Positions 29,701-53,990 of a DNA stretch of 64,000 nucleotides are shown here, piece by piece; the first letter of the stretch is position 1; every line of letters begins with the position of its first letter. Under the pieces are notes generated by a model. That model saw only the letters and a program-made list of their open reading frames with translations, made no database searches and had not been told where the DNA came from. Source of the stretch: Phoronis australis. Lineage: Eukaryota; Animalia; Phoronida. Location of the stretch: assembly GCA_002633005.1 (NCBI GenBank), contig NMRA01000260.1, positions 365,559 to 429,558 of the forward strand, read 5' to 3'. Made by a program: the position numbers and the translations under genes.

Positions 29701-30128
29701 GGGACCAGTCAAAAGCAGACATCTTTGATAACCAAGTTCGGAAATGCGTTGATGCAATATCAAAGTGTCAGCGTGATGTAGAAGGAGTTGAGAAGGAAAC
29801 AAATGAGTTGCTGTTCAAATTTAATTGTGTTAAATGGTTTGAAAGGGTGATTCGAATGGTCTGTTTAATAGTATCGTGGGTTTCTATTCACGAGTACTAT
29901 GTTAACGGACAAGTCAACAAAACCACTTTCTTGGGAGCCTGTTTTCTATCTGGTGTCATGTGTTTTGGTTTATTTCCTTCTTCAGTGCGCAAATACTGCT
30001 CAGAGATTAAGACATTGGCAATGGAACATCGAAAACTTGAAACAAAACTTTACGATTTGAAACGTTCCCTCCACAGTGCCTACAGTTATAGGCATAGGGT
30101 CGAACGACGAAGGAATAATACATTGTAA
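23743..30128 (+). CDS. Uncharacterised ~360-aa alpha-helical/coiled-coil protein with a C-terminal hydrophobic hairpin. Exons 23743-24199 and 29503-30128.
   Basis: Two long ORFs join in phase 1 via donor gcag|gtac (24200) and acceptor tctctcttttag| (29502). Strong ATG context gaaATGG. Hydrophobic segments VIRMVCLIVSWVSI and FLGACFLSGVMCFGLF are flanked by heptad-rich helices. Confidence 0.75.
24585..24823. mobile_element. Hairpin insertion, Penelope-like inverted pLTR fragment
   Basis: Perfect 78-bp inverted arms (24585-24662 / 24674-24751) plus a 72-nt unpaired tail, flanked by 11-bp direct repeat GGAGAATTTTC (24574-24584, 24824-24834). Confidence 0.6.
25270..26067 (-). mobile_element. Possible solo LTR
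   Basis: TG...CA termini (tgtgataaccc...ttctgaca), internal duplicated cttgctggtcac.gtctctgg block, ATTGG boxes and a ttctagaa motif; no TSD found. Confidence 0.3.
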
Positions 30129-30535
30129 TTGTACTTTATCATTAAAAACCAGACCAGGTGAACAACATGCTGGGAATCATAGATACCAATTTACGGTTTG
30201 GCTCAACTGTTAACACCAACACTCTGTGCAGAAGACAGTTGTTGCTTCACAATTATTGAGTTGTTAAAGTTATGGAAATGAATTTGTGAATTATTTCACA
30301 AGCTTAGAGTTGCTGAAACACGAGATAGATGCATTCACAGTATTTGGCATGAGTGGTACCAATACAACTGAATTTTCTTTGCAAAAAGACAAACATGTGT
30401 CTATGAAGTGGAAGGTTAAAAATATACATCCTCATATTTTTTACTTACAAATGAAGTTTTTCATTGTACGTCTATGCAAAGATATATTTGTAAGAAAGGT
30501 TAAGTTATAGAGGTATGTGGAGTTCCAGAATAATT

Positions 30536-32013: not shown

Positions 32014-34019
32014 ATAACTTTGATTTAGGGAAGTATGTGGTTTGTGTAAGTGTGCGTTTATAATGTTCGCTGTTATGGTATTTATATATTTATTAAATGC
32101 TTATACTTTTGAAAGTAGACAACTGGGCTCCATGCCACTGCAATTGTGGCTGTTGAAACATGGTAGAAATGTTGATCATTAGGAATAGCTGCCTAGGTCG
32201 TCTTGTTTAGAGGCCAAAAATGCCTTTATCAGTGCAATGAGCTATGAATATTGAATGTGAATTACAACATGTAGTTGATAAAGTATATTGAATAATACTT
32301 AAATGGTGTATTTTTATCACAACACTCAGTACACATACACAAAAGAAATAGATAAAAAATATAAGTTACGAAAATACAAAATTATTAACGCGAGATCACA
32401 TGTAATTCCATTGTCATTATTCTTACATTCTGTCATAAAAGTAAAGCTAAAAGTTTTGAAATTTACATAAACTTCACTGCGTTTTTATGGTCCCAGCATG
32501 TGTTGGGGTATATTCATCTTTTCAGGATGTCATTTTCCATGCAGTATTACAACAAAAAAGGAGACAGTAAATTTGCCAACATTGCCGATCATGAAATGCC
32601 ATCTGAGAGTGAATAGGATTCATTTCCCATAAAATTTTACAAGAGTATCTGTCTCAGTTTCATTTTCCAGGTATGGGGTTAATTTTTGCCCCTTTCCAGG
32701 CTTTCCACAGTGAGCGGTGACGGGATTTTTCATCTTACATATCAGTTCTAAAATATGTTGTTCTAACTCTTTCACTAACATGTAATTTGTACTTAGGTCT
32801 ATTTTTTCACATTTGGAATTTTTGATAAATCTTCACAAAACTGACACTGATGACAATGGCAAAGTTGCCACAATACATTGATGGTGTTTTTAAATTCAAT
32901 CCAACACCAAATCCCATCATTTCAACTATCTCATGGACATCATCATTCATCCACGTGAAATACTGAACACCAAAAGTGTCCATCTTATATTCTAGAAAAT
33001 TGCTTGAATATTCTTCCTGGCGTGTTTCCAGGAAATTACACTTCCATCATGTAAGCCGAACACGCGCTCAAATGATTTAAACTTGCCAAATTAGTCTAAA
33101 CTTTACACTAAATCACGCTATGTGATAAGGATTCATGTTAATAACAAGAACGTTTTACTTGGCTTCATGGTCCTTGTTATTAAGCATGTCGGAATAATTT
33201 TAAATTCATATTACAGAGTGTATAAAGTTATTCCACAAGACTCGTTCATTTTTGGAAATGCTGAAAGCAAGTCCTGAGACGAATATTTGGAGAATTACAC
33301 CTTTTTAGTCATTTTGTACCCTAAAATTAAGCCTGGATATACCTATGTGCAATATGAAAATATGTTTTGAGTTGGACTAAATTAGGCTTGCAAGACAAGA
33401 TGGAAAGAGAACTGAAGTACTGCTGTTGAAAATAAGGACTGAAAATAAACATGTTTTGTAACTACAAACCTTGTTTAGTTTGAGAAACAACATAAATTAC
33501 TAAAAATCATAAGTGTGACTCCAAACACGAGCCAACAAATCTTTGCTAAAATACAAACCCATGGGTTTGCCTGTGCTCTTGACACTCAGAAATTTAATTG
33601 ATAACCTTTCTACATGTCCCCATACAAACTGAATATGTTTTTATGTTACAAATGCACTCAATAGGCGAACACGGACAACATTTTCCTACTATAACAATGC
33701 TAATTTTCGACATTTCACGACAAATGACTCTAAAGCAGATTTTGCAATGAGATGTTTCCATTATTAAACATTCCTATCATAATAAACGAGGCAATAAATG
33801 CAAGACAACACTTCGGCCAATGAACGAAATCTCACTTAACCCAGACAAACACAAGATTCCCTTATTCACATGTGCAAAAACATATGTAGCCTTTAGTCTA
33901 TACCCTGCATATTACTCGAATTTCCACACAATTACAAAATAATCAAAATACCGTCTTGGAATGCCAGGGTACTTAGGAAGTTGTTTACATGAATACACTT
34001 TTCATTTCTATCCTCTTCC

Positions 34020-37000
34020 TCATACCATTGGAATTTCTGGCCAACTGATATTTTCTAAATCCACACTTCCGTTCTCATCGACACCATCAAGTGGAAAGTC
34101 AGCAAATAGCTTGCTGAAGCTGGTATTGCCTAGACTTGTATTTCGGCTAGGGCACAATGGCGTTAACCCTTGAAATCCGAAGTCACGCATTGACCCAGTT
34201 CCAGGATTCCGTTGATGTTCCGGTGACATGAGCGAGGTTGGGTTAAGAGAAGTGTTGCCACGACGACAGGGTGTGAGGTTTGCGTCATGCAAGCTCCTCA
34301 GTGGGGAAATCTCACAAAGGGATGTGGAGAACTGTGGGCTCCTATCTTTGACCCTGTAAGGAGTTGAGGTAGCTCGTGATTCAGAAAATTTGGGCGGGGT
34401 CAACAGCAGCTGCCGTATTGGTGATGAAAAACCATTTTCAAGACCAGCGAGAAAGCTATCTGAGAGATTTATCGTGCCTGATGTCGACATGATATCTGTC
34501 ACAGGAGGTTTTGGATCTAAACTGTCATTTCGCGTTTTGTTCACCGCCTTGCGCTGGCGCCTACGGCCTTTCAATTTTTTCCTTGAGGGTTGTAACAATG
34601 GCTGTGTAACACTGTTATGGCTGCCTACGACTGACTTTTCAGAAACCTGTGATTCGAATCCTGAGTCGTGGCTTGGAGACTCAGTGCCTGATGAGCTGAG
34701 ACCAACGCAAAAGCCACTGGATGAAAGTTGTTCAGAGAAGTGACCAGCACTCAAACTGGCATTCAGCCATGCTTGACTGATAAGCTGTGATCCATCGCAG
34801 ACGCTCACGCGCGGGGCGATCTTCACGTGTTTCTTGGTCCCAGCAGGTGTTCGCAAGTCACAGGACCTTTTCAGACTGGATGGAATGTGCTTTTCTAGAA
34901 CAGCAATAAGGAATGGCTTTAGCCACCATTCAAAGATTTAATCATCATTATCATGCACGCACCCAGCCTAAAAATGGGGGGTTCAACTTTTTGAGAATGT
35001 GGAAAGTTTGCTTAGATTCAAGGGGTACGCTATGAATTCGCCAAATTTTGGTAGTTCCTGAATTGTTAGTGGACGTTTGTCTCGTTTTTTATACTTTTTT
35101 CAGTTTTAGTTTCTTGGAGGTGAACCTTTTTGCCTACTTTGCCGAATGGGGGGCTTGAACGAGCCCCCCGCATGGTTATCATTTATAATCATTGTCAACT
35201 TATTATAAACCTTACATTAAGGTCAAATACTGTTGACGCTTACATGAGGGGAGACATTAATTTTGTTTTGACAAAAAAATCGAAGAAGATATATGTATCT
35301 TGTGTCTGGAGTCATACTAACAGCCAACATTGGACAGAATGCCTCCCAAGCTAGTACCTCACAAATATGTCGAAGTCTACTAAGATCACACAAGGTTTCC
35401 CATTGGGCATTTGTCCACCTTATAAACTGGTATACTTACAGTACTTCTAAGTAACTCATCCTTGGAAGTAAGCTTGACATAGTTCAGTTTTCATCAAAAA
35501 ATAACCCTAATCAGCATCTGATTCAGTAGAATGCTAAAGAAAACACCTATGTTTGTGGTCTCATACACTCAATACACTCACCAGTATTTGTGGCAGACGT
35601 TGACTGTAGCAACTGTATGGTCTGTAATGGTACAATCGTCCAGTCGCTGTTGCCAGGGGCTAAATGACACAAACAGACAGAGAAATGGAGAGTTCAAAGA
35701 GTAAACAAATGATTGCTTGTTAATACAAGAGCAACGCAGAGCATTGAAATGTGCCCACAATTGCACCGTATACGGTATCCTTCTAGGGTTGCTTATTGGT
35801 ACCATAAAGTGGCCAGTAGAGGGCATATATGTAGTATGTTGTACTTTGCAAAATGGAAAGGCATGGTCATTGTCTCCTCAATAGGCTAGGGGCAAAATGT
35901 GAGTGATCTTCATAATACAAGCACATCCTATACATCAGTTGCTTAAAGCACCACAAACACATAGAATTAAAAACAAATTTACCACCATAAATTTAGTAAA
36001 GATCCTGCAAACTGTTTGGGAGATACAGCCATGGGTGCAAAAAGAAACTGCCACTAGGAAGCGCCACAGTAATCAAAGTCATGGGAAATTCAGCGTCAAC
36101 CGTCCTCTTCATAGTAAGAACATACATGCCCAATTTTCACAATCATACTTAGAGCGGTTTGGTTGATAGAGGGGTGGACGCCAAAAAACAGACTCAAAAA
36201 CAGTAAAAATGGCTACTGCGTGTCGCAAACTAGGTCGAATCCATCCGAAAATGGGAGGATAGCATCATCGCACTAATAGGTGCCTACATACCACATTTCA
36301 TGAAAATCCGTTAAGGACTTTTGAAGACACAAAGGTAAGCTTAAAAAACTAAAATTGCCACTAGGGGGCACATCGGTAATCGGATCCGTCCAAAAGTCGT
36401 CATCTTCCATTGTGAACATCATATAAATACACTTACACAATTTCATAAAGATCCTGAGAAAGGTTTAGGAGATACAGCCATAGGCGCAAAAAAAACAAAA
36501 CAGCCACTAGGAGGCGCCACAGTAGTCAAAATCGTCGGAAAATCATCGTCAACCGTCCTCTACATAGTAAGCATATACATGCCAATTTTCACAATCATCC
36601 TTTGAGCGGTTTGGTTGATAGAGGGGTGGACGCACAAAAACAGACTCGAAAACACTAAAAATGGCCACTAGGTGGCGCAAACTATGTCGAATCCATCTGA
36701 AAACAGGAGGATAGCGTCATCTCACTAATACGTGCCTACATACTAAATTTCATGAAAATCCGTTCAGGGCTTTTGAAGATACAAAGGTAAGCGTAAAAAC
36801 CTAAAATTGCCACTAGGGGGCACACCGGTAGTCGGATCCGTCCAAAAGTTCGCACATGCCGTCCCATTCATGAATGGAACATATGTGCCAAATTTCATGA
36901 ATGTATGTCAAAGGGTTTTGGAGATAGAGCAGCGGACGCCGGACGGACGCCGCCCGTACGGACGGACGGACGGAGATGACGGCATAATGCGTCCACATAT

Positions 37001-40000
37001 AAATATGTGGGCGCATAAAAATCAAGAAAACGAATACACTTTTGTTGAAGAAGGTAAAGGAAAATGCAGTTATAAGCATCACTTTCTTCTACAAGCGTTT
37101 TGTAACCATCAGACTAGAATGTTATATGTTATTACTGAAAGTGGCCTCCTGAAAAAACAATTGACATGAAGATTCAACATTCTCATCCATAGACATCCTC
37201 TTTGACAAGAAAAAATTGTTTCAATCTGATAACTTTTAAATTTTCCACAAATGGCTTACCAGCTATGATGCCAAGGGAAGTGTTGAATGGACTTGCTGTC
37301 ACTGAGTCAGAGCCAAGGGAGGGCTTTGGAGCTGCAACATGCACAGTAAGTGAACTGATAACATAAATTTCATGTTAATTTTACAAGGGGATTCTCCCAA
37401 CGCAGGCTCAAACTTTAGCATTTTTTTACAATAAAGGCAAGAACTTACAATTTTGAAGACTGTAAACCTGATGTACTGAGCTCATGCTGACACTGAACTT
37501 TTTTTAACGCTTGCATTTTCAGCACTGCCTCAGCGGTTTTCTCCCGACACTTGGTCCGTTTAATCCATTGTAGCATGAAGAGATGTGAAATTATGTTTGT
37601 CAAGATGGTTTAGCCGAGCCGAGTAGACAAGAAAGTCTAATTGAGACAAAGTCTTACAATTATAAATTCTAACACTTTTACAGTAGGTACTGTAAATATC
37701 TCCATCAGCATCGAAGCACAACTCAATGGGTCTTTCCAAAATGAAAAGCACACGCCCTATGGAATGCATCTACTGAGCATGAAATTGACACACTGCCAAA
37801 AAACCAATGACAAAGGGCTTTGAATAATTTTTTCACAGCACGTGCTGCAGCAGTTGTTTACAATAGAATTGTGAAGCTTATGCAAAATTTCAGGTACCTA
37901 GCTCAAGTAAGAAAATATTAGCAAAAGTTCAAGATCTGTTTTCTAGAATCACCCTGTATCTCAACCTTAGCAGCGTCACAATACACAATCCTTTGAGGCT
38001 ATTTTTAATGACAATTAAATCAATGCAGCTCGATATTCAAAGAGATTATTTATTTACTGTTGATAATTTAGCAAAGAGAATGACTTTAAGAAACAAAGGT
38101 ATTAGCGTGCAGGAACTCTGTGCCAACAAGTCAACTCCATTTACCTATTTTTGAGCCAGCTCCTTGTTGAACTGTTGGCTTCTTGTACGGGTCCTCCTTG
38201 CGTAGGGTCCAGAAGGAGCCTACGAGTCCAGGGGTGCTCACACGCTCCCGCACAAAGATGTCATACAGTGACAAGTTGTGTCGAATGGAATTCTGCAACA
38301 GCAGAGATGGCAAAGCTAAACATACATGTTTAATTTCATCTTGACCGTCAACAAACATAACAAAGAAACTACACATTCTTGGACCATACACATTCTTGGA
38401 CCATACACATTCTTGGATCATACACATTCTTGGATCATACACATTCTTGGACTATACACATTCTTGGACCATACACATTCTTGGATCATACACATTCTTG
38501 GACTATACACATTCTTGGACCATACACATTCTTGGACTATACACATTCTTGGACTATGCATATTCTTGGACCATACACATTCTTGGACTATACACATTCT
38601 TGGACCATACACATTCTTGGACCATACACATCTTGCTTATTGCTCATGTTCAGATCAAAGCCCACCCTGAAAATTTTTAAGTTTACATTTTCATCAAACT
38701 CCCGCACTCAGCTTGGAACCCAACCCCAACGTATACGAACAAGACTTCTCTAGAAGTGCCAGTGTCTATATGAGTGTCGTCACGCATGAATTTTAGCTCC
38801 CAAAATGTAGACAACTGACATTCCATTGGGTAACAAACATTCACTTTGAATGGCAACGTGTCACATTCAAGCATGAAAATACCCACTTATTCTGAAGAAG
38901 ACATGAAGTGGTTCTTCTGTCTCATGAGCAATTATAATACAATTATGCTTGTATGCCAAAAATGATGATGACATTTGGAAGACCAAATTGATTGTTCAGG
39001 TAAACGCCTTCCCTGACCTCTCAAAAATTTCATGTTTTACTAGCCACACTTGACTTACCACCAACCCTTGTGGTATTTCTGATCTAACCCAGACAGGATT
39101 GATGTTAACACCACGGTTCACTTAGGACTAGGGTGAAAATATTATCAGATGCAGTGACTGAGTGACATCAGACTGACCTTCCAGCCCTGCTTGGCTGTGA
39201 ATCTGTAATAGGGGAACTTGCCCTCAATCCAGCCATAGATCTCGCGCAGTGTCATTCGCTTGTCTGGTTTGCTGTTGATGGCCATCTGGATCATAGACAT
39301 GTAGGAAAATGGCGGACGTTTGTCCCGGCCACACTCACGACTCACCTGGAACCATTGAATAGAAGTTAGACATTCCGACGTATTATTCTCAAATTGCAAT
39401 GGGACTGCATGCCACAGGCTGACAAACGTCAGTGTAGACAGGGCCCTTGATGCCTTGATTTAAAAATCCCACAGAATTCCCCTTATCAGCCCAAAAATTC
39501 CTCTCTAATGATTAAAAAATTCCCCTCAAGGTCAGGTGTGATTTCCCCCCAACCAAAATATTCCCCTCCTTGAAGGTACAGGCACTTTCACTTTTCCCCT
39601 GAGGTGAGTGAGGGCCCTGAGGGATGAATGTTTGGAGCATTAAACAAAATGTCAATGATAGACTTCGCTCTATGACAAAAAAGGAAGTAACTTTGCTTTG
39701 TTGTTGGCACCATCTGTACATTACAGCTGTGCACAAAATAACTTTTGGTAAAATTTAGAGCTCTTGCAGTAAAGATTTCAAAATTAGGAATTGTTTTTGT
39801 CTAAAACTGAAGATTTTTGTACTGCACATAGAATTGTATAAAAAGAAAGTTAATCAATTACCAAGTGTTCAAAATGGGTTAGAATCTTTTTTTGTTTCAA
39901 TCAGTCAGGACTGCTGTAACATTGGATTTTAGCAGCTTCAACTTTAATAAATAAACATTGCAAGGTTAGGAATATTAAGATGTGTGAAATGAAAGGAAAC

Positions 40001-41767
40001 AATATGATTCACAAATCTGCTATTACCGGTACTAAATTGTTGTTGCCATGAATAAAATTTACTTATCATGTGATTAAGAATGAAATGGTCTAAATTTTCT
40101 GACCTGAAAGTCAGCAGTAAGCAGATTCGATACAAGAATACAAAGTGGGAGATGAAGTGATTGTCCTCCTTTATCCACGATTCAGGATTAGTGACATATG
40201 ACAGAAATACGCAATGCAAAAGAATATCAAGAAGTGCTGTGTATTTTGTAGGACACTACACAAACACAATTAAATTGTTTTCTAGGCTTCAGTTTAATAT
40301 ATCAAGCTATATGCTGAAGCTTCCAAGTGAGAAACCGTACAGTAATACTTTACTGCAAAGTTTCACCACTTTACGACACAACATTGCAAACAAGTGAAAT
40401 TTCACTTTTTCCTCAAAGTAAAACCAAACAATGCTTTATCATTTTTAATTTCTATGAACCATAACTACTGTCAGACAATGTTTTGGGGAACTGTTGACAT
40501 TCACAACAATGCTAAAAGCATTTGAAAAATGAAAAAAAAATCAATTTTGGTAATTGCTTTATCCAAAATGGGAAGTTACACAGTAACAGAAACTCACCTT
40601 CTCAATCTGCTGCTCACTGACGAAGACCTTGTGATTGATCTGGTTGTTGTTGCGGACCAGTGTATCGCCCGACATTGTGCCCAGCCATTGGATGTTTGTG
40701 AGTGATGTGTTCAGCGAGTCATTAGAGTTCAGCTGGTCACCTACAAAGGGGGAAGTATCAGAGGAACAGGTAAGAAAGGAGGGACATTGTCAGACAATTG
40801 TCCACTCTTGGCTATTTACGTCACAGGACCAAAGTATTTGGGAAAGTGTCCACCCAATGTAAATGCAAGCACAGTGTTGTTCCATGATTGAAAAGTTCCA
40901 AACCACATTTTGGAAATCTTGAACCAAAAGCTCTGAGCCATGTTTAAAATGATAAAGCTATGTTTGAAAAGTTTTGCTTTACATGACAACTGATTGCATG
41001 GTGGTTTTTGCATTTAATTTTGTAGTAAAAATGAGTGACAAGGGAACATATGTTACTGTAGTTGTTTCTGTGAATTAGACTATAAAAACATAATATGTAA
41101 TTTGAGCCATGTTTGGACTTTTGCCCAAGACAACCTTCAGAAAGCAAGAATTTTTAACCATTTTAATGTCGGTGTTAATCTAATCAATTCTGTCTATGAA
41201 AAATATAATTTTCATCATCACCAAGTAAGTCATTGTTAGAGATGACTGCAAGAAGTCCATACCTGAACAGGATGCTTGAAACAACCCCTCTGTTGACAGA
41301 ATGGTATATCTCTTGTTCACACTACTTGGTGGCAGCACTACATTAAAGCCTCGAGTCTGTTGTTGAAGGTGATTGTTTACGGCGCTGACAACACCCTCTT
41401 TGGACTGATTGTAAGGTGGCGTTGGTTGATTGAGCAGGTGTGAGATCCGATTTGTATTTGCATGTGGACGGTACTGTAATGTGACTGGTGCTTGACTCTG
41501 GTGATCAGAGGTTGTGACTGCATTCATCAGGCCATCTTGAGAAGCCAACGAACCCGCATAGCCAGTCTGGTCAGGAATTTTGGTTATTTCAATGACAGTC
41601 TCCTTCTTGAGGCTATCGACTGGCAGTGGACGGTTTGACAAGAGATGGTTGAAAGCAATACTAGTTCTTTTAAATTCGGTTTTACCTTCCATAGATTGTA
41701 TGTTAATAGGAACTAAATGTTTCTCATCTTCAGTAATATAGCCAACAAGATGGCCAGCTCCATTCAT
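34020..41767 (-). CDS. FOXM1: Forkhead box protein M1, ~636 aa. Exons 41767-41263, 40740-40598, 39345-39178, 38292-38145, 37331-37260, 34894-34020.
   Basis: LNTSLTNIQWL motif; forkhead domain [64 protein letters not shown]...SFWTL; many S/T-P sites; C-terminus NTSFSKLFADFPLDG...LENISW resembles the FOXM1 transactivation domain. Intron phases 1,0,0,1,1 are consistent. Confidence 0.92.
35724..37018 (-). mobile_element. Young HINE family A copy in the last FOXM1 intron
   Basis: Reverse complement of 30536-32013, with acaagagcaacgcagagcattg at the left end and gtgggcgcataa at the right end. Confidence 0.88.
38371..38631. repeat. 17-bp minisatellite (acacattcttggaYYat), ~15 copies, in the intron splitting the FOXM1 forkhead domain
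   Basis: Direct tandem repeat visible in the sequence; it explains the overlapping repetitive ORFs. Confidence 0.95.
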
Positions 41768-42923
41768 TCTACTGGCAGTCAATGTCTAAACCATTCCATT
41801 CTACAAAATTAAAATGACAGATCAAAGTTTAACTCTTAATGATGAACAGTACTTCTATCACTTTTAATCTCAGTAGCATTGGTCACATTTTAGAAGCTTC
41901 TTAATTAGCCACAATAAACTTGCAACTAGTATCCATCAAAAATATAATTCTTTGAACTTACCACAATAAACCTGCTCTTTACTCAAACTCAAGATGATTC
42001 ATGGGTTTTGCGTAGAACTGACATTTTATATAACTTGAGATAACGCTCGATAAGTTGAGATTTCATAGCACGTCATTTTATACACCGAGCATGGTTTCAA
42101 CCCCTACCAAACTTTCAGGTCATCATTTCTCATGTGAGTTAACAAACGAGTTGAGACCAATTTTACTTCAGAAAGTGGTTTAAATCAAGTTAGTTTCTTG
42201 GGCACTGAAAAGAAAGTTTGTAGCCACTTTAAACACCTTTTTACATGCACCAAACAAAAAACAAACTGTTATTGCTTAATGTCATCATTTTCTGGAATAC
42301 CTGATTGTAACAGCTATTCTAGCTAAGTGAGTCTTACTAGATGGATTTTTTTTCTCAAAGTGTGTTAGCCTTATGTCATCTACGTCAGTAGCTCACATTT
42401 AGTGTTATGTAAGACCCAAGCAAGATGTCCAGATTTGCCTGACTTCCCTAAAATCAGAGCTTCAATATTAACTGTGGTTAATCACTCACTTAAGCTTTTG
42501 TGTTCCGATCAGCTTTGGAGTTATTAGCTGGAAGGATTTTTATATGCAGGCAATTAGCCTTAAAAAGACTAATTGCCTCCACACTCCACAGGTATAGATC
42601 AGACTTCATCTACACATGAAAGGTATATTAACCATATTAACCATAGTAACTTGACTTTGATATCCAGAGTTTAAAGTAAAATTTGCAGAAAATGTTCGGC
42701 CGCACTGGATTAAGATGAGACACTGACTAACTGCTTGTACAGCCTGTACAACACAACTAGGCGATTGATAAATTGCCTAGAGCAGACGGATGGGTAACCT
42801 CCCCATTACCTTCGGTAAGTTTCCATTTGACCTGAAACACATTAACTGTAAATGAGTTAAGTCTTCAATTTCCTTGATGGATTGAAGGACTACTGTTGAT
42901 TGCTTACTGCAATATTTAGCCAA

Positions 42924-43524
42924 TGTTGTGAAAGTGTTTCCGGTGAATCATATATATGAGCCTCTGTTAGCCACATGCTAACGGGCAATTGCCTATTAGC
43001 TGAATGGTTAGCACGCTCGCCGGTTAAATCGGGGTCATTGGTTCGATTCCCCTATTACGACATTTGGCGTAGTTAGCAAACGGATGATATACCGTTGAAG
43101 GACTTCATAGAGCATGGGGCCTGAGAAAGAACGCTTGGTGGTAGGGTACAGGCATAATGTAAGGTACATGTGCAGGCATGATGTAAGGTGCATGCACAGG
43201 CATAATGTAAGGTGCATGTACAGACAGGGTGTAAGGTATGTGTACAGGCATAATGTAAGGTACGTGCAGGCATGGTGTAAGGTGCATGTACAAGCATAAT
43301 GTAAGGTACGTGTACAGGCACAATGTATACACCTGGCTGATGGCGCGCTTGTTGATAGGAAAGGGGGGAATGTTGTGGACGTGCTTCCGGTGAATCATTA
43401 TGAGCCTCTGTTAGCCACTCGCTAACGGGCAATTGCCTATTAGCTGAATGGTTAGCACGCCCCACGGTTAAATCGGGGTCGCTGGTTCGATTCCCGAGAT
43501 CGGGCAATCTCGGCTATTACGACA
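42924..43524 (+). mobile_element. TRIM (non-autonomous LTR element) with tRNA-derived sequence in both LTRs
   Basis: LTRs 42924-43062 and 43371-43524 (TGTTGTG...CGACA); PBS-like tggcgtagtt at 43065; PPT aggaaaggggggaa at 43357-43370; A box tagctgaatggttagc and B box ggttcgattcc in each LTR; internal ~25-bp tandem repeat 43150-43330. No TSD. Confidence 0.85.
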
Positions 43525-43914
43525 CCTCCTTGACTTTGTTTGAGCTGGATCATTCTAACTCAACTGCATCAAATGTTGGCAATGGTCGGTTATTCCCTGA
43601 TTTAGAGAACTATTTTCATCCACAGAATAAAGGGCACGTTATTCAGTGATTGCCTGGTTCTCTAAATTACTGGGTTGCCTTGCATCAGTTCAGAACTTCT
43701 ATGGCATGCCTTCTAAATTCTGCTTTCTGCCTTGTATTGCCATGTCTAATGCCGCTTCACGCTTGCCTTGGATTTTGACAGATTCTTGATTGACAGTTTG
43801 CTACTTCAGTAGACACTGATTAATAATAAACAGAAGATTGAGAGGTAACGCAAATCAAATATTTTACATTTTCCCAAAACGTAAAGTCCTGCAATATTCA
43901 TTAACAATCACAAC

Positions 43915-44160
43915 ACTTACCACTCCGCACACCAATCCTGTTCAAAATTCGAACCATTAATATCGACAACCAATCAAATCATAGAAGCATTTCACGTGAT
44001 GACGAAGGCATTTCTTAAGTCAATGTTGATTTGTCATTTACCAAATGTTTGACCAATGAAATTGACTTTAACAAACTTTTAGAAAGCTTATTTACTTCCG
44101 GTGAAAATTAAATGGCTGTGTTTATCGGATTCCTGTGTTCAGTATTACTGTAAAGTAAGT
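43915..44160. promoter_or_regulatory. FOXM1/RHNO1 bidirectional promoter with inferred non-coding first exons
   Basis: Outward-facing GTAAGT donors on - (43915-43920) and + (44155-44160); CHR TTTGAA on - (43941-43946); CCAAT at 43932, 43970, 44053; E-box CACGTG 43993-43998; ETS acttccgg 44094-44101. Confidence 0.7.
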
Positions 44161-46161
44161 TTAAAAGTTGATTAAACGTAATTGTCCTTCGTCTAATTAT
44201 TAGACACCGCGTATTTTAGCTAACCCTGGAAGTGCAGAAGCACGTTTTCAAATCCGAAAAATTTCGCCGTATCGTGTGACGTGAATTTTAAGACAGTGTC
44301 ACTGTCAGTGACCACACCGACACTCTCTGACACTGACATCTCTACTCTAGCTGGCCCAGAACTGCAATAGAGAACGTCTCTACCGCAAGCTAGCTTTTTG
44401 GTGAATTATGCCTCAAGCGGATTGAAAAATCAAAGCCACGTTGGCACTGGTGGGATATAGTGGTCCCTGATTTAGAGAACCAGGCACTCACTGAATAACG
44501 GGCCCGTTATCCAGTGTATGAAACTGGTTCTGGTCAATTCCGCGAAAAGGTCAACCTCGAGACAAAAAATTAAAACTGTGGCTACACTAACGTTTCTGGT
44601 CTCACCTGAAATCCCATTATCTCTAGTTTCAGGACCCGTATTTGACTGTCCTATAACTTTCAATTTTTTGCCTAAATAGACCCATTTTGGGGGGTCACTT
44701 GACCCTAAAAAATTAGCTCGATTTTCATGTGTGTTGCTAATTGTTGTCAAAAAAGCTAAGTATGGGTATTTCACTATACTATAAAATTTGTGCAATCTCA
44801 TGAACCCCAAACTTTATAAAAGATAATATTTCAACTTTGGCACATCATCGAGCTCTTGGTGCCAAAGGTCAACTCCTGGATATCATGGTGCCATATGTCC
44901 ATCACAAAAAGTGTTAAAAAGTTTAGTTACGTTAAAAGTTTTGAATCAAAATTAAAATAATTTCAGATTCTCTTTTAAATTGTTACTCAATATTATCGAC
45001 CAAAATTTTAGATCCCAGGGATTATTTGTTAAGCCAGAAATTGTGTGACAGACGTATAGCAAATTTGTACGTCCGTCACACCCATGAAATTACAATTTTC
45101 AGCAAATAAAAGTAACCTTAGGTCATATTTTTTACTTTCTAAACTTACAAATAAAATGTATCTCACACCTAAGAACTTTAAAACGATAAAATATTACAAA
45201 GGCAGCTTTAAAATCACGTGAAGAAGTTGCTACAGATTTAAACTAAATGCATTGGATTTTTCAATTTCAAAAGTATTTGCAGAAAGTTATAGTTTTCAAT
45301 GTCATCTAGATATTCATAATAGAATTCAACTTATTAAAATCACACAATTGGCCCTCATTATAAAATGTAAATAAAACAAAATGGTAATTTAATGAACTTA
45401 TTGTTAATCTGTTAGTACACCGTGTTTGTAAAGAAATGCTTAGCTTTTGGGAAATTCAAGATGCAAAAATATTCATACAAAAGAATTCCTAAGGTGCTCT
45501 AGAGTATTATAAATAACAAGAGACCTAAAGGAATACATGTCAGTTTGCTATTGCGCTGGAATCAACATGTTACTTCTCTGACCTGCTATGCTGTGTTTTG
45601 TGTTGAAGAAGCCGATACTGGGCATTTTTAAGTGGTAGGAACCTGTCACCTACTTTATTGGGCATTTTTGTCACACTCTCACTGACCGTAGTCATCCTTG
45701 TTGTGTTTTTCAGTGTGTTGGGATATTGGGTGGCTTGTGTGAAATGATTCAAAGCAAATGACTACATTGTTTCATCTTACGTCTTTTTGATCCCTCAATC
45801 TTTTTAAGAATTAGACTATTTTTTTTCTGCTTAGCTTCGAGGAGATTAAACTGGTGTTTAGAAACAATTGAGGAAATTGTTGGAGACCACGGGAAGAACA
45901 GATGCCACTGGAATAAGAATAAATACCTGCTCTAATATTCTTTGAAACTCGAAAAAAATGCCATGGTGGATGGAGACATTCTTAATAATACTTGCACACA
46001 CTGTGATGTGACATTATTTCAAGCAGCCTCTCCTTAACTTTAAAAAAAAGGCATGAGTTAAAGAGCTGGGTGAAAACCTAATCATGTTAATCACTAAATA
46101 GAAACCAACATCTGATAAGTTAGTTTACATATTCCTAAATCATAACCCCAAATGCAATTAA

Positions 46162-47205
46162 TTATGCGCCCACATATTTATATGTGGACGCATTATGCCG
46201 TCATCTCCGTCCGGGCGGCGTCCGGCGTCCGCTGCTCTATCTCCAAAACCCTTTGACATACGTTCATGAAATTTGGCACATATGTTCCATTCATGAATGG
46301 GACGGCATGTGCGAACTTTCGGACGGATCCGACTACCGGTGTGTCCCCTAGTGGCAATTTTATTTTTTTACGCTTACCTTTGTATCTTGAAAAGTCCTGA
46401 ACGGATTTTCATGAAATTTGGTATGTAGGCACCTATTAGTGCGATGACGCTATTCTCCCGTTTTCGGATGGATTCGACCTAGTTTGCGACACCCAGTGGC
46501 CATTTTTACTGTTTTTGAGTCTGTTTTTGGCGTCCACCCCTCTATCAACCAAACCGCTATAAGTATGATTGTGAAAATTGGCATGTATGTTTTTACTATG
46601 AAGAGGACGATTGACGCTGAATTTCCTATGACTTTGATTACTGTGGCGCCTCCTAGTAGCAGTTTTTTTTTGCGCCCGTGGCTGTATCTCCCAAACCGTT
46701 TGCAGGATCTTTACTAAATTTAGCAAGTGTTTTTATGTGATGTTGACAACGGACGATGATGACTTTAGGATGATTCTGACTACCGGTATGCCTCTAGTGG
46801 CAATTTTAGTATTTTACATTGACCTCTGTATTTTCATAGGTCTTCAGGTGTATACTTTGTGTTTCTTCGTGACTATGAAGGAAAAGTTCCAAGTAGAATT
46901 TTGTTTCTGGCATTCTAATGCTGTGCTAATCTCGTATGTTGGTAAATTTGTTTTTAATTCTATGTTTCTGTGGTGCTTTAAGCAACTGATGTATAGGATG
47001 TGCTTGTATTATGAAGATCACTCACATTTTGCCCCTAGCCTATTGAGGAGACAATGACCTTCCCTTTCCATTTTGCAAAGTACAACATACTACATGTCAT
47101 ATATGCCCTCTACTGGCCACTTTATGGTACCAATAAACAACCCTAGAAGGATACCGTATACGGTGCAATTGTGGGCGCATTTCAACGCTCTGCGTTGCTC
47201 TTGTT
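46162..47205 (+). mobile_element. Young HINE family A copy in RHNO1 intron 1
   Basis: Same termini as 30536-32013 with exact subTIR pair atgcgcccaca / tgtgggcgcat; lacks one ~450-bp three-monomer block relative to that copy. Confidence 0.88.
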
Positions 47206-49459
47206 AAAAAATGCCTTGCTTTCACACTTGAAGACAGCACAGGTGATTTGAATCGAGATATGAATGCCAAAAGTCAACGCTGTCTACTAAACCATGCTTC
47301 ACACTTTGTTTTAAGAAGATACTGAAGGCCTGTTACTAATGCTTTTAAAACATCACCATTATTACTTTCATGGGCATGCATCAGAGCCATCAACAGCATG
47401 GTCCAGAGAATAATTTTGTGCAAGCTTAGGGTGAGTTCTAATTTGAAAAGCAATTAACTAAAATGCATTTTTATGACAGTGATTAGTAATGTTTTTAACT
47501 TTATTTCACATTTTATATTTTGACAGTCACATTTTCTTATTGGTTTTGAATTGGTATTCTATTTAATGCATAAAAACAGGTTTTCCTGATAACTAATAGC
47601 TGTCAAAATGATTATCACTCTCATTTCCACAAAAATGGCTTACCATCTTTAAAGGGAAGTAAAGATTTTAGGCGCTTGTTTTATAGAACTCTAAATCAGG
47701 GACCGCCGTAAACGACCAGTGTCAGCCACATTGTTATAAGTACCTTTCCCGCACATAGGGACACCCAATCTCTTTAATTCTTTCCAACTCAAACATATAC
47801 TCCCGTAATAAATTAACTTTTTCTTTGAGCTGTCAGTTGCCCATCATCAACTTGCCATTTTTAGTGCTGCATTTGCTCCTGGTGGGTGCAGTAAAAGTAG
47901 ATAAAAAGTGACATTCATTACATTGTTTTTCAACACTTTAACGTCTATATCTGGTAAGTGTCGTTTGATTTGATAATTTTGCATGCACCCCGTTCTTTTG
48001 TTAGGTCTTCATATTGAAGTTTCATGACATAGGTGATGAACTGAACTACCCGGGTGTTATGAAATTATGAGGTCTGTATATATCATGTGAAGTTAACACA
48101 CAGCGATTCCTAACTGGCAGGTTAAACTTATGAATAACTACTAGTAGGCTATATGCAACCTTTTGGAAAAAATATTTGATTTATTGAATTGGCAAAAATT
48201 GCCTAATTGGTTATGTTGTATTTCATGGTGCTGAAAGTCAGTCTTATCCCTCCATAAATTTAGAAGCAGTACAAAATACTAATTTTATAGCACCGGTAAC
48301 CTATTAGCTCTACTCAAATAAAAGCGTAGTTTTTGATGATGTTAACTTTTGAGTCAGATGTTATTTCGCCAGTTTCCCCCATATTAGTCCAACTCCAAAG
48401 TTCTATTTTCAAACAGTTACTACCAAGGCTGTCTCACAGGCACACCTTGTACTATACTAATACTTTATATGCAGTGCATCGCCTATGAATGTCGTAGGAA
48501 TGCAGTATAGAGATAGCGTTGTAATATAGCTGGGCGGTCCTTGCATTAGAGAAACAATCAATCACCGAATAATGGTCCTGTTATTCAGTGGAGGATGATG
48601 GTTCTTTCTAGAAAGATACCTTTATCCAGATATTTGTTTCTTTTTGTGAATGAACTATTGAAGAAATGAAAGTTTGTTTTTATCTCCTATAAAAAGTACA
48701 TACAACATTTGCACATAGTACTAGAAAATGTGAATATGGACCCTCTGCATTTCCTCCAAGTCTGAGACTGGGGCCCAGAGACTCAGCCATTTTGAATGTA
48801 ATTGACTCAGTGTAGTTGCCCATTGTTGGATTTGGGAAATACCTATTAAGTGATCAAACACTGAAAAATAATAAAAAGTGTTAAAAATGAACGTTTTGTC
48901 AGTTTTCATTCAATTTTTTCCTGTCTTCTGAAGTATGAACAACTTATTGTTTTTTAATATTTTTTTAATTCTATACTTGACTAGGAGCCAAAATCACAAG
49001 CACACAAATTATGTGGTCAAAACAATTTTCGTGTCATTGGTCATCATCCCCTTGAAAAACTTGGTTTCCCTATTTTTGAAATCTTGGATGAACTTTTGCG
49101 ATGAAACCCAAAAAACACCCCCCCCCATTTACTGTCAAGTGTAACCAGATCTATGTCAGGCAAAAAATTAAATGTAGTTGATATTTCTTCATCAGAGACT
49201 TACCTAAAAATAACAATTTATACTATAATTTGTTGATATTACGGTATGTAACTGTTTGTGTATGAATTTAGCTGCTGTACTAACTTCATCCTGGGTGAAC
49301 CAAAAAACAGAAATCTTAAAAATTTCGTGCAAAATTCTCAATTCTAAAATAATTACCTTAATAATTCCTTTCTTGACAGGAATGAGGAAACAAAAATGTG
49401 CCACCTGAAATTTTCTGCCATTAATGCTCTCTATCCACCGTCACCTTTGATTTGCAGAA

Positions 49460-52400
49460 ATGCCTCCAAGACGTCGAAAAAAATCTAATCAGCATCGCAA
49501 GCGCCCATTAGCATTCGCTGAGAGCCCTGTCAACATCTACCATGATATTCCATCTCCCATTGCTTCGGCTAAGAACCCACCAACAGCAGACGTTGTTCCA
49601 TTTGATGACACAAAGCCATGGGTAAATATTTGTCGGAAATGTTCTTACAAATAATTTTTCTTAAATATGACAATGCTGTAGTTATTGTAGATGCAAAACG
49701 ATGTTTTGATTTATAGTGTTTTGATGTTTGTTGTAGCTCAAAAAATTAGTTTTGGGTATTGGATTTAAAACTCATAACAGCTTTGTGGATGCGTGTCATA
49801 TTCAAGCGTTCCTCATGCTTTCTATATTGTTAAAATGACATACATTCTAGGGAGACTAAATGTAAAATATAAAGTTGCTTTCAAGCAAGTAGTAGGGTAT
49901 GCCAAGTCTTTACTGTGAAAATATAAGAGCAGATATTGTGTGGTACTTGTGATAAAATCTGACCTATTTCAGTCAAAAATAACACGAAAACTTATCTTTT
50001 CAGTCTTTAAAAGCATCAAACACTGCTGTGGATGCCCACTTATCAAAGCATTAGGTGTTTGATGGCAGCCATGGTGTTGAACAAAATCGATATTCCTGTT
50101 ACCCTGCCGACCATTGTGTATTTTTGTAATCAAAGCACTGTCCACACTGAAGCAATTGTAACTTTCAAAACCAATTTAGAGGTTGTTACTGTTTCTTGGT
50201 TACCGGGTATGGCTTTCTGTGAGGGTGGTTTAGCAAAAGGTTTTAACTGTTTAACTTTGAGTGAACACAGCAATTGCAGAAGTCAATCTGTAGGTGGCGT
50301 TGCTGTCAAATCTCTTTCGAAACAATGGCACACCGAGGTATTACCTCGTGTGAATCAGAACACGATAGCACTGACAACTAGCATCTAAAAACCACAAATT
50401 AGGGTTACAACAGGTCTGACTGTCTGCGTGACCTTTAATAATTAGATAACAGTTGTAACTGTAGAAAGAGTTATAACCAAATTTAGTCTGAATACAGCTT
50501 AAGAAGTCATTTTATGCTCAGTTTAAGCTCATTAGTTGTCTCAGGTGACGCTGTTATTTGTGATTAGCAATACACTGTATCTACTATTAATTTGGCCCAA
50601 TAAACTCAGTTCCCTTTTTCATAAACATGGCTCCCCGACCACCAAAGTTGGTTCCGGCCTAAAAACATGACTGAGGCACACAGAAACAACTTCTGGCTCA
50701 GAAACATGGCTCACTAAGTACCCATGAGTCTGCACCGTGTTTGTGAGTGGGAAGGTTTTTAGGATGGGTAAGCCGTCTTTTTTCAATCTGGTCACGAGTT
50801 TGGGTACTCGTAGCATGCATTGTGATGAACTAAATATTTGCCAGTGCCTGGTCGCATGAAGAAATCCCAAATAGGGAATCAACTAGGTCCCCAAAATCTA
50901 CTGTGTATTTGTGGGCTTTGAAAACATCGATTGTCCTTTCTTACGCCGTTTCAGTCTCATTACTAAGTCAATTTTTGGCTTTGATACAAATCGAGAGTGA
51001 ACTCTACATTGAATTCTGAATACTATTGAAAATAAGTAGGGATATTTTCATGCAAGTAAGACTAGTTCTATTATTAGAAAAAGCCATTCGTCAAAGAGGA
51101 ACTCATAATAAAGAAAAAAAGCCATTCGTCAAAGAGGAACTCATAATAAAGAAAAAAAAGCCATTCGTCAAAGAGGAACTCATAATAAAAAAAGCCATTC
51201 GTCAAAGAGGAACTCATAACAAAGAAAAAATTACATGAAGTTGTTACATCTGTAAGTAATGAATAAAACAAATCTGCAAAAGATGTAGGGAACTTAGTCG
51301 AGTCCCTATTTGGGACTGTTTCACGCAACCGGGCACAGGTCACCCAGTTTTCCACCGAACATATCTTTGATAATACAGCAATCTTGTTGAGAAATCTTCC
51401 GTATTATTATAGGCTTACCAATCCTAGAGAGAATGTGTGTAACTTGATATATGTAGGACCTTGCAGACATGTCTGTACTGGGTAAATTATCTACAAAACT
51501 TTAACCCAGTAAAAGTATATATTTTCTGTAAGTGGAAAGGCTGTGCGATTTGATTTTTGGTGTTTTAACTGTTAATTGGGTCTTGTGATCGTGTCTTTTG
51601 AGTAAAATTTACCAAAAAAAACAAAAGTACATTGATAGCAAAACAAAAGTTATCAATATAAATGTTCCAAGATGAAATCTCAAAAACTCTGTTACAGTTT
51701 TCTAAATTACTATCTCATTTTGAGCTTATGCAACTTTTGATTTTTTCTTTAAAATCATAAATTTGAAAGTCATATTATTGATAGCCTCTTATCTGAAGTT
51801 GTAGCATTTGAAAAGAATTCCTAACATATTCTTGGGAACAGTACAAAAGGCTCAGTACATGTAAGTTATATATAGATCCTATCAACCATGTCTGAGATAT
51901 GTTTCAGAGTTAGCCAGATTTGAAAATTTTCTGGGTTCCTGCATATCCTTAAATATTTTGTTATTATACTTTCTGGCTTAGGCATTGAACACAATAGTTT
52001 GATATTTTGCGGATTTGCATGGCTGTTGTCTTAGAATATTCACCAACTTTCATCCCATTTGCTCTCAGATTTCGCCGCAATTTCAACAGCAATATCCAGG
52101 TGACGTAGTGCGTCGTAGAATCACCAGAAGTCGCTCTAGAACTGCACGACAAGCCAATGTCAACTACACGTCGTTGAGCATCAGTGAGACAGCAGTACAG
52201 AAAAATGCAAAACAAAAATACAGTGCGTTAAAGTTTCTTGGAGAGACGACCGAGATTGATTCACCGATAATTGAAATATCATATTATGGTCAGGAGAATG
52301 AAAATGTGAACAGCGCTGATCTTGAAGATGGTATTTTGACTCGAGAAAAAGACAATAATGATAAAGATATCAATAAAAAGTTTCATGCATCCATGGACAA

Positions 52401-52878
52401 TACTCGGACATCTAGTGCTGATCGTGTACAACTAGCTACGCAGGAGAAAAGTGGTTTGTGCTGCAACAAACGGACCAGGTTAATTGATGGTTCTGGTGTG
52501 ACAGATTGTAAAATTGACTGTACTCGAGAAATTACATCCTGTGTGATGACGACTTGTCATAAGGACCACCCGTTGAGCTGTGACCAGCTGGTAAACTCAC
52601 CATTAAGTCATTTAAGTGAAAATGATCAGAATAGACGAACTCGTGCTAAGCGCTTGTTCAGTAGCCAGCGTTTTGTCAATAGTGCCCAGTGCCGTAGTTC
52701 TCCAAGACTTGTGGCAGAGCGTCAATTTTTCAACTTATTACAACAAACTCCTGTTGCCCAGTTCCGTGATTTTAAGGTTTTAGTGGAAGATACTCCCGAC
52801 TCTGAAAAAGGATTGTCTGTGCTGGAGAGGAGACATTTGCGTGTGTCAAAGAGAGCTGGGTGGGCACTGAAGATATGA
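49460..52878 (+). CDS. RHNO1: RAD9-HUS1-RAD1-interacting nuclear orphan 1 (RHINO), ~323 aa. Exons 49460-49621 and 52069-52878.
   Basis: N-terminus MPPRRRKK...KRPLAFAESP, PW|ISPQF across a phase-0 intron, and C-terminal VLVEDTPDSEKGLSVLERRHL match the RHINO blocks (MPPRKK, PLxF, WVSPxF, VLVxDTP). Position opposite FOXM1 matches vertebrates. Confidence 0.82.
51077..51230. repeat. Four tandem copies of a ~35-40-bp unit (aaaagccattcgtcaaagaggaactcataataaa)
   Basis: Direct tandem repeat with variable A-tracts, embedded in a dispersed repeat whose inverted copy at ~55700-55970 lacks it. Confidence 0.9.
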
Positions 52879-53398
52879 CACTGTCACCAGTAATTCTCCA
52901 TCGATTTATCATAAAATGTACAAAAGGAATCATGAATAACAAGAAAGTTCTGGTTTAAAACTAGCTTGGTTTGTACTGTGTAGATGTCATAAAACCACAT
53001 TTGTGTAGTTCCTGTTATTGACATCAAGGTGAACAGCCTCTGAGAAAATGAACAATGACAGGTTTGACTTGTATGTTTGTGTAAAATAAGTGAAGAATTA
53101 CCGTGGGTTTGACATGATGTCACTCCGATGTTACGCGACACTGGTAACAATTTTTTTTTCTAAGGTTCTGTGTAAACTTGGCAGAAAGTGTGTAAAGTTA
53201 GCTGCAATTCTAACAATTTAACTGCAACTCAACCAAACTACAGGATTTAACTCAGTGCTCCATAATGTGGTTATTTTTGGAAGTTCATTTGGAATTTATT
53301 TTTGGATGTACCACCAATCTGCCACTGTGTCATGCATTGTAACTGTTTTTTAGTACAAATGGAAGGAATAGTTATAAGAAAAGTTGGATCATTATATT

Positions 53399-53990
53399 TT
53401 ATTACTTGGCGAAATTTATTTCGCCAAGTATGTTGTTCTTTCATCACGAAATTTACACATAACACATAGCTCTGGAAGTACTGGAAGCCTATTGTTTTTC
53501 GTCAAAATCGAATACAAGATGGTGGCTGTGGCGGCCATTTTGTTTTCATTTTAAGATTCAAAGGCTTCTGGAGGCTACAATTTTTTATGTACAGGGCTGA
53601 CAATCAGCAGAATTATTGGACCGGATGTGCACTACATGTATACCGGAAATTGTTCACTTCCGCTTAAAGATGGCGGAAATATAGGCACTCGCACATGCGC
53701 ACCTCGATTTCAGGAAAAAAGTTTTCTCCTGTAGAGGGCGCATTATAGGGCCAATTCCTTCGAATATTTGCAGATATTAGTTTCTTATGACATGCTATTA
53801 TACAAAGCCAAAAAACCGGAAGTTGCTTTCAAGATGGTGGATCTGGCGCATGTTGACCCATTTTCAGTCGTGGTGAGATGCCATTTTAATGGGAGAAGGA
53901 AATGACGTGAATTTTTGCATGTGGATTCTTTGAGGTATATTCTTTCAAATGAATTCTAACAATTTTTTTCTCAGACTTACTGTTTTCGAG
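53399..53990 (+). mobile_element. 5' part of a third HINE-like family (C)
   Basis: 5' hairpin ttattacttggcgaaatttatttcgccaagta followed by degenerate repeats with aagatggc/ggccattttg and agagggcgc motifs. Confidence 0.45.

What the first reader, a model, noticed from the sequence alone, without database searches (positions are those of the whole stretch)
34020..52878. FOXM1-RHNO1 head-to-head pair in an apparently invertebrate genome
Seen: FOXM1 (-) and RHNO1 (+) diverge from a ~234-bp segment bounded by two outward-facing splice donors. It contains a CHR (TTTGAA, plus TTCGAA), three CCAAT boxes, an E-box and an ETS site. Both genes appear to have a non-coding first exon and a TE-filled first intron, while the core itself is TE-free. 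Known: human FOXM1 and RHNO1 share a bidirectional promoter, and CHR + NF-Y sites mediate DREAM/MMB-FOXM1 cell-cycle control. Inference: coupling of a G2/M transcription factor to a 9-1-1/TOPBP1 checkpoint adaptor may predate vertebrates. RHNO1 is short and divergent, so it is easily missed outside vertebrates.
Basis: partly seen in the sequence, partly recalled or inferred. Interest (0 to 1): 0.78.

Follow-up and report, generated by a model that had tools for sequence, protein, structure and literature searches.

The report
Ancient back-to-back FOXM1-RHINO gene pair
In this animal, likely not a chordate, and in two other unnamed animals, the cell-division regulator FOXM1 and the DNA-damage adaptor RHINO sit back to back as they do in humans, with a cell-cycle switch sequence beside the FOXM1 start, so the pairing likely predates vertebrates and the switch likely acts mainly on FOXM1.

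Summary
Confirmed and extended. RNA reads splice both non-coding first exons (43921>41800, 44154>49458). Read ends put the two 5' ends about 158 bp apart; human is about 150 bp. The + gene has the RAD1-binding and both RAD9-binding motifs of RHINO, but its exons alone score under the Pfam cut-off. FOXM1 residues match molluscs and Lingula, not chordates; the phylum is unresolved.

Of 33 animal FOXM1 loci from metagenomes, 6 reach far enough upstream. Two carry RHNO1 head-to-head; four do not, and three of those face a twist-like gene. The window and both carriers share an inverted double CHR, which in the window straddles the FOXM1 5' end; human has one CHR at the FOXM1 start. It occurs once in the 64 kb window.

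Corrections: one of the three CCAAT boxes and the TTTGAA lie inside FOXM1 exon 1, and the first introns are no richer in repeats than the window average. One of three RNA runs has RHNO1 but no FOXM1, so co-regulation is not tight.

This is a new member of a known kind (ancient head-to-head pairs). My searches found no paper on it outside vertebrates, and no earlier scan note on this pair.

The parts
43921..43948 (-). FOXM1 exon 1, non-coding, about 28 nt (5' end from read ends, not cap-mapped)
   Evidence: joint 41800/43921 (X2 7 reads, X3 2); 5 of 7 X2 molecules end at 43948
41263..41800 (-). FOXM1 exon 2; two short upstream ATG frames, main ATG at about 41767
40598..40740 (-). FOXM1 exon 3 (SLTNIQWL motif)
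   Evidence: joint 40738/41261 (8 and 11 reads); loose ends read into exon 4
39178..39345 (-). FOXM1 exon 4, first part of the forkhead domain
   Evidence: PF00250 E=1.8e-17; best PDB hits FOXM1 68 bits, next family 51
38145..38292 (-). FOXM1 exon 5, rest of the forkhead domain (predicted splice sites; outside the stretch laid with reads)
34020..34894 (-). FOXM1 last coding exon (predicted acceptor; exon(s) between 38145 and 34894 not resolved)
   Evidence: Lingula FOXM1 428-710, E=1.7e-22
43941..43953 (-). Inverted double CHR straddling the FOXM1 5' end (TTCGAA, one base, TTTGAA in FOXM1 sense)
   Evidence: only match in 64 kb (0.14 expected); same pattern in L001 (2446) and L003 (3122) and in no other of the 33 loci
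43949..44106 (.). Inferred interval between the two 5' ends, about 158 bp, with CCAAT at 43970 and 44053, E-box 43993-98 and ETS-like site 44095-101
44107..44154 (+). RHNO1 exon 1, non-coding for the main frame, with a 13-codon upstream ORF; 5' end inferred from the longest exon-1 side of joint reads (48 nt; X1 contig starts at 44115)
49458..49621 (+). RHNO1 exon 2 (ATG 49460): basic N-terminus, first KYxxL+-type motif, ends at the W of WISPQF
   Evidence: PF15319 18.1 bits (cut-off 25); joints; HMM of L001+L003 E=6e-13
52069..52878 (+). RHNO1 exon 3: ISPQF, second KYxxL+-type motif (KYSALKF, residue 104), C-terminal VLVEDTP motif; protein 323 aa
   Evidence: joint 49620/52068: 5, 8, 6 reads; PF15319 13.4 bits on the C-terminal 72 aa

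Best explanation
FOXM1 and RHNO1 are transcribed in opposite directions from one short interval here, an arrangement likely inherited from an ancestor shared with vertebrates, and the double CHR at the FOXM1 start likely works as a mainly one-sided cell-cycle switch. Shown: both spliced transcripts on opposite strands, 5' read ends about 158 bp apart, the same gene pair and double CHR in two other animals, and RHNO1 expression in a sample with no FOXM1 reads. Inferred from human work: MuvB (LIN54) binds the CHR, so DREAM shuts FOXM1 off in non-dividing cells and MMB/FOXM1-MuvB turns it on in G2/M, closing a positive feedback loop. RHNO1 keeps a basal start near the ETS-like site and would get only a cell-cycle boost. 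The encoded RHINO is predicted to bind RAD1 through WISPQF and RAD9 through two KYxxL+-type motifs. Overlapping promoter elements would keep the pair together until one gene gains its own promoter, as seems to have happened in the L030/L023 lineage.
For: RNA joints and clean strand separation: no - mate reads in 43934-44067 and no + mate reads in 44068-44201. Human intergenic span about 150 bp by RLM-RACE with bidirectional reporter activity (PMC8104967, passages). Human TTTGAA at position 0 of the FOXM1 TSS, DREAM-bound, the same site at -49 of C12orf32/RHNO1 (PMC4176359 Table S3 rows). TTCGAA is one of the three commonest functional CHRs, and CHRs work in both orientations and lie at or near the TSS. 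RHNO1 head-to-head in L001 and L003 with the intron predicted after the same W; L003 exon scores 26.2 bits, above the Pfam cut-off of 25. Double CHR once in 64 kb and in exactly the two RHNO1-bearing loci of 33. Asymmetry: RHNO1 exon-3 depth 7.4/7.9/6.9 in X2/X3/X4, FOXM1 exon-2 bin 11.2/7.8/0. PMC4176359 reports that CHRs at head-to-head genes did not co-express both genes. Non-chordate signatures: ECG..KRP in 11 of 13 named spiralian rows and 0 of 9 chordate rows; IQM in all 13 versus IQF in all 9.
Against: No binding, reporter or cap data. Only three RNA samples of unknown tissue, 18-19% of each run read. Single window RHNO1 exons score 18.1 and 13.4 bits, under the cut-off. The gene tree does not fix the phylum: window+chordates p-AU 0.38, window+vertebrates 0.34, window+amphioxus 0.32, window+molluscs 0.39; no echinoderm, hemichordate, named annelid, cyclostome or cnidarian FOXM1 was in the set. 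L001 and L003 are close to each other (88% over 197 columns), so they count as one lineage. The cores are not alignable beyond motifs. 4 of 6 informative loci lack RHNO1 upstream. Human Table S3 gives both genes a G2 or G2/M peak, which favours some two-sided control there.
Confidence: 0.62

Rival explanations
1. Ancient but passive linkage. The genes share an open promoter region by descent; the CHR serves FOXM1 alone and RHNO1 gains nothing from the position. The pair persists only because a break in 160 bp is rare.
For: FOXM1 absent while RHNO1 is unchanged in X4. L030 and L023 keep a conserved CCAAT-ETS-CHR block upstream of FOXM1 without RHNO1 and face a twist-like bHLH gene.
Against: Human F/R-BDP drives both genes and their expression correlates across tissues and single cells (PMC8104967 section 6). 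The double form of the CHR was seen only where RHNO1 is present (two lineages with it, one without, so weak).
Confidence: 0.22
2. Tight two-sided co-regulation: the inverted CHR pair gives each gene its own MuvB site, so both rise together in G2/M.
For: Two CHRs in opposite orientation in three animals; human G2 and G2/M peaks for both genes; human co-expression in the top 1% and 9% of bidirectional pairs.
Against: X4 has RHNO1 at the same depth as X2 and X3 but no FOXM1. The double CHR lies about 155 bp from the RHNO1 5' end. Stable RHNO1 mRNA could hide co-transcription, so this is not excluded.
Confidence: 0.12
3. The age claim is wrong: the + gene is not a RHINO orthologue, or the window comes from an unsampled chordate, so the pair need not be much older than chordates.
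For: Sub-threshold Pfam scores; no hits; AU tests do not reject placement next to chordates.
Against: Collinear RHINO profile matches at positions 1-49 and 187-219; WISPQF against human 56-WVSPDF-61 and two KYxxL+-type motifs; nesting with ray-finned or lobe-finned vertebrates rejected (p-AU 1.6e-5 and 6e-4); Lingula is the best match for both halves (the comparison set was seeded with Lingula, but one search found Lingula from the window's own exon).
Confidence: 0.05

Closest known systems
Human FOXM1/RHNO1 bidirectional promoter, F/R-BDP (Barger et al. 2021, PMC8104967; abstract, passages and section 6 read)
   Same: Same two genes, head-to-head, about 150-160 bp between 5' ends; E-box present (human MYC site per that paper).
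   Different: Conservation was reported for vertebrates only. Here the core is AT-rich with no CpG island and no E2F pattern match in the core, it has an inverted double CHR, and one sample has RHNO1 without FOXM1.
[quoted passage not shown] 2014, PMC4176359; passages and Table S3 rows read)
   Same: TTTGAA and TTCGAA at the start site with CCAAT boxes upstream; human FOXM1 has its CHR at position 0.
   Different: Human rows list one CHR plus an adjacent E2F site; the three invertebrate-type cores have two CHRs in inverted order, one base apart. Binding untested.
Conserved ancient microsyntenic pairs, CAMPs (Irimia et al. 2012, PMC3514665; abstract and section 7 read; supplement not available)
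   Same: Unrelated genes, 5'-5' orientation, under 1 kb apart, kept across distant animals.
   Different: I could not check whether FOXM1-C12orf32 is in their list of about 600. Here a specific cis-element also keeps its position.
Vertebrate RHINO (Pfam PF15319; PMC10937111 and PMC12907562, passages read)
   Same: RAD1-binding W-x-S-P-x-F, two KYxxL+-type RAD9-binding motifs, basic stretch between them, conserved C-terminal motif.
   Different: PMC10937111 calls RHINO a protein found in vertebrates; these proteins are 320-337 aa against a 239-position profile.

Membership tests
FOXM class forkhead gene | Forkhead domain closest to FOXM1 among Fox classes | tested here: met
   three FOXM1 chains at 68 bits, next FOXG1 51
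FOXM class forkhead gene | Similarity outside the forkhead domain to named FOXM1 proteins | tested here: met
   SLTN.WL motif and last exon E=1.6e-24 to Lingula, 2.5e-7 to amphioxus
RHINO (PF15319) | Profile score at or above 25 bits | tested here: inconclusive
   window exons singly 18.1 and 13.4 bits; the joined protein was not scanned; homologue L003 exon 26.2 bits, linked to the window by HMM E=6e-13
RHINO (PF15319) | RAD1-binding motif (human 56-WVSPDF-61) | tested here: met
   WISPQF at 54; WVSPQF in L001 and L003
RHINO (PF15319) | Two KYxxL+ RAD9-binding motifs (K/R-Y/F/K-x-x-L-x-hydrophobic) | tested here: met
   window RKRPLAF at 13 and KYSALKF at 104 fit the published consensus; L001 fits once, L003 only loosely
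RHINO (PF15319) | Physical binding to 9-1-1 and TOPBP1 | not testable with these tools
Bidirectional gene pair | Divergent spliced transcripts with starts under 1 kb apart | tested here: met
   about 158 bp by read ends
Bidirectional gene pair | Correlated expression | tested here: not met
   1 of 3 raw-read runs has RHNO1 without FOXM1; three samples only
CHR/DREAM-MMB promoter | Common CHR variant at the start site, conserved across species | tested here: met
CHR/DREAM-MMB promoter | MuvB binding and G2/M peak expression | not testable with these tools
   needs ChIP, DNA pull-down or synchronised cells
Conserved ancient microsyntenic pair | Same adjacency and orientation in lineages split over 600 My ago | tested here: inconclusive
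   human (literature), window and L001/L003 share it; phyla unresolved; no named invertebrate genome could be checked

The most novel reading that the evidence does not exclude
The FOXM1-RHINO pair and the CHR at the FOXM1 start go back to the last common ancestor of bilaterians, so a single transcription-factor site has kept its place for over 550 million years. RHINO, with all its 9-1-1 binding motifs, is then a general animal checkpoint adaptor and not a vertebrate one, and the inverted double CHR is an undescribed two-MuvB docking form that lets one promoter silence FOXM1 while RHINO stays on.
Probability: 0.5. Interest if true: 0.66.

Novelty: new member of a known kind. Interest (0 to 1): 0.5.

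Why it matters
The human pair is studied as a co-amplified cancer unit, with conservation noted only in vertebrates, and RHINO is described as a vertebrate protein. A much older pair with a positionally kept CHR would date FOXM1 autoregulation through MuvB to early animals. It also points to the CHR as a candidate answer to the open question in PMC8104967 of which factors drive the promoter and whether they act symmetrically, and it offers a natural control in a lineage where the pair is broken. Ancient head-to-head pairs as such are common, which caps the surprise.

Tried and rejected
No whole genome is held for this window, so DREAM/MuvB and 9-1-1 genes could not be sought. RHNO1 searches that found nothing: word-index search with exon 2 (4 candidates, 0 hits), phmmer of exon 3 against 1.84 billion representatives (0 hits), PDB, ESM Atlas (no usable hit; best 0.80 TICRR fragments at low recognition, not used). 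So no named invertebrate RHNO1 was obtained, and the plan to test adjacency through neighbouring accession numbers gave FOXM1 ids only. The look-up of sequencing runs listed no RNA holder by index; the raw-read runs came by species label. The Irimia supplement was not available, and file 1 of the PMC4176359 supplement was not searched. The first tree run did not finish. The 23-row tree left out 14 of 37 rows (long, partial or near-duplicate) and both finished trees used LG+G4 without the mixture model. Placement with bivalves or with gastropods was rejected (p-AU 0.0008 each). Global alignment of five promoters did not register the motifs. ARAGORN found no tRNA gene in the tRNA-like intron repeats. 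Literature searches for the pair or for RHNO1 outside vertebrates: 20 of 33 listed; 3 of 3; 1 of 1; 4 of 4; 40 of 1949 listed, none with RHNO1; none of the listed titles or abstract openings reports it. 'TE-filled' as a special feature was rejected.

Full report
Observation. The window holds a forkhead gene on the minus strand (34020-43948) and a three-exon gene on the plus strand (about 44107-52878). The forkhead exon matches FOXM1 chains in the PDB at 68 bits against 51 for the next Fox class, and Lingula FOXM1 matches along the whole gene. The plus gene encodes 323 aa. Its coding exons hit Pfam RHINO at profile positions 1-49 (18.1 bits) and 187-219 (13.4 bits), each below the cut-off of 25. 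The full third exon gave no Pfam hit. The protein carries WISPQF at 54, against human 56-WVSPDF-61, the RAD1-binding site (PMC10937111, passages), and two motifs that fit the published KYxxL+ consensus for RAD9 binding (PMC12907562, passages).

RNA. Three stranded raw-read runs with the same species label, and one contig set, were laid on 39000-53800 and 40450-44440 (18-19% of each raw run read). Both first exons are real: 41800/43921 in X2 (7 reads) and X3 (2); 44154/49458 in X2, X3, X4 (2, 11, 9) and X1. Joints 49620/52068 and 40738/41261 are also seen. Five of seven FOXM1 molecules in X2 end at 43948. The longest exon-1 side of RHNO1 joint reads is 48 nt, which puts that 5' end near 44107; the X1 contig starts at 44115. 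These are read ends, not caps. The gap is about 158 bp; the human RLM-RACE figure is about 150 bp (PMC8104967). Expression is asymmetric. RHNO1 exon-3 depth is 7.4, 7.9 and 6.9 in X2, X3, X4, whereas the FOXM1 exon-2 bin reads 11.2, 7.8 and 0; X4 is also 0 over FOXM1 exons 2-3. Tissues are unknown.

Promoter. The informative feature is the pair TTCGAA-N-TTTGAA (43953-43941), which straddles the FOXM1 5' end. The pattern occurs once in 64 kb against 0.14 expected from 100 Markov samples. In human, Table S3 of PMC4176359 lists a conserved, DREAM-bound TTTGAA at position 0 of the FOXM1 TSS, and the same site at -49 of C12orf32, the old name of RHNO1. That paper finds TTCGAA among the three commonest functional CHRs, 45% of CHRs reversed, and no co-expression through CHRs at head-to-head genes. 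Its table nevertheless gives both genes a G2 or G2/M peak. The CCAAT at 43932 lies in FOXM1 exon 1, leaving two between the starts. First-intron repeat cover (25%, 22%) equals the window average (25%); the core has none.

Other animals. A metagenome scan with the forkhead exon returned 33 host-derived FOXM1 loci out of 132 pattern matches. Six reach more than 2.5 kb upstream of the predicted exon 2. The other 27 have the forkhead exon within 4.2 kb of the contig start and at most about 1.3 kb upstream of exon 2 where I located it. L001 and L003 carry RHNO1 on the opposite strand, head-to-head, with a predicted intron after the same tryptophan; an exon of L003 passes the Pfam cut-off at 26.2 bits and the other three exons score 17-22. 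An HMM built from these two alone finds the window's exon 2 at E=6e-13 and exon 3 at 0.003 among 2935 six-frame fragments. Both loci have TTCAAA-N-TTTGAA with a CCAAT box within 20 bp upstream, and no other locus in 158 kb matches the pattern; no RNA was available for them. L030, L031 (twist-like protein identical to L030's) and L023 show no RHNO1 match. They face a twist-like bHLH gene 2-2.4 kb from a conserved CCAAT-ETS-single CHR block (the name twist is recalled, Pfam gives only HLH). L010 shows neither gene in 3.9 kb. So 2 of 6 informative loci have the pair; counted by lineage, one has it and one long-branched lineage (L030+L010, 100/100) does not.

Which animal. The window is not inside ray-finned or lobe-finned vertebrates (p-AU 1.6e-5, 6e-4), bivalves or gastropods (0.0008). 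Sister positions to vertebrates, amphioxus, chordates or molluscs are not rejected (p 0.32-0.39). Signature residues side with spiralians: ECG..KRP before the forkhead in 11 of 13 named mollusc and brachiopod rows and 0 of 9 chordate rows; IQM in all 13 against IQF in all 9 (the Priapulus row gave no match and is not counted). Lingula is the best match for both halves. Echinoderms, hemichordates, named annelids, cyclostomes and cnidarians were not in the set, so the signatures could be ancestral. I put non-chordate at about 92% and spiralian at about 75%. An earlier scan note on another piece of this genome says 'likely mollusc' (e1-10581269); it is a lead only and fits an unsampled mollusc class. 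The window is about 1.5 changes per site from L001/L003 in FOXM1, which are 0.15 apart.

Mechanism. Shown: divergent spliced transcription, conserved adjacency, a conserved CHR pair, RHNO1 on while FOXM1 is off in one sample. Inferred: MuvB binds the CHR at the FOXM1 start, DREAM represses it outside the cycle and MMB/FOXM1-MuvB activates it in G2/M, while RHNO1 keeps a basal start by the ETS-like site 6-12 bp upstream of its inferred 5' end. Interleaved elements in 160 bp would make separation costly. Passive retention and tight two-sided control are the rivals. That RHINO also acts in mitotic end joining is recalled and was seen only as a search listing.

Novelty. Ancient 5'-5' pairs with short gaps are a described class (PMC3514665 section 7); its supplement could not be read and may already list this pair. 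The human pair is known, with conservation stated for vertebrates, and RHINO is described as found in vertebrates, though automatic annotation of invertebrate genomes may already name it (not checked). Five searches showed no report of the pair outside vertebrates; subscription papers are mostly outside the library. The scan's own index has no note with RHNO1 and no look-alike of the forkhead exon. Verdict: a real, well-supported new member of a known kind, with a conserved start-site element as the extra. Interest 0.5.

Noticed in passing
window 30534-32017, 35719-37020, 46162-47209 (older copies at 3569-4338, 15855-16802, 61310-62364): A dispersed non-coding element with terminal hairpin-like ends, a TCCG microsatellite and one to two 440-450 bp core repeats; copies 87-95% alike. 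Reads pile up on it at depth over 1000, almost all on one strand. It resembles Helentron-associated or pearl-like elements (recalled).
   Followed up: no
window 42922-43051 and 43369-43524: Two 90%-identical tRNA-like short repeats in FOXM1 intron 1 flanking a 24-bp tandem array (43146-43327); ARAGORN calls no tRNA.
   Followed up: partly
L030:2568-3356 and 5740-5800; L023:2273-3112 and 5150-5210; L031:1339-2127: FOXM1 faces a twist-like bHLH gene head-to-head in this lineage, with a conserved CCAAT, ETS, CHR block upstream of FOXM1 and no RHNO1 match in between.
   Followed up: partly
L001:2461-2467, L003:3136-3142, L023:about 5197-5206: An AAGATGG or AAATGGCGG run follows the CHR within three bases in FOXM1 sense; it looks like a YY1 start-site motif (recalled). 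The window has GGATTGG at the same place and AAATGGC just inside RHNO1 exon 1.
   Followed up: no
window 44112-44153 (+); 41790-41799 (-): Upstream ORFs in both leaders: 13 codons ending just before the RHNO1 donor, and 6- and 2-codon frames before the FOXM1 ATG.
   Followed up: no
window 2200-3301 (+): Exons of ribosomal protein S16 (PF00380, E=2.7e-5).
   Followed up: no
window 23629-24234 (+), 29484-30128 (+), 62636-63211 (+): Two open frames of 201 and 214 aa with no convincing Pfam family, and a kringle-domain exon (E=1.1e-9).
   Followed up: no
window 21293-21718, 24585-24751, 61662-61934, 19220-20515: Long inverted-repeat (foldback) elements, 80-93% self-complementary.
   Followed up: no
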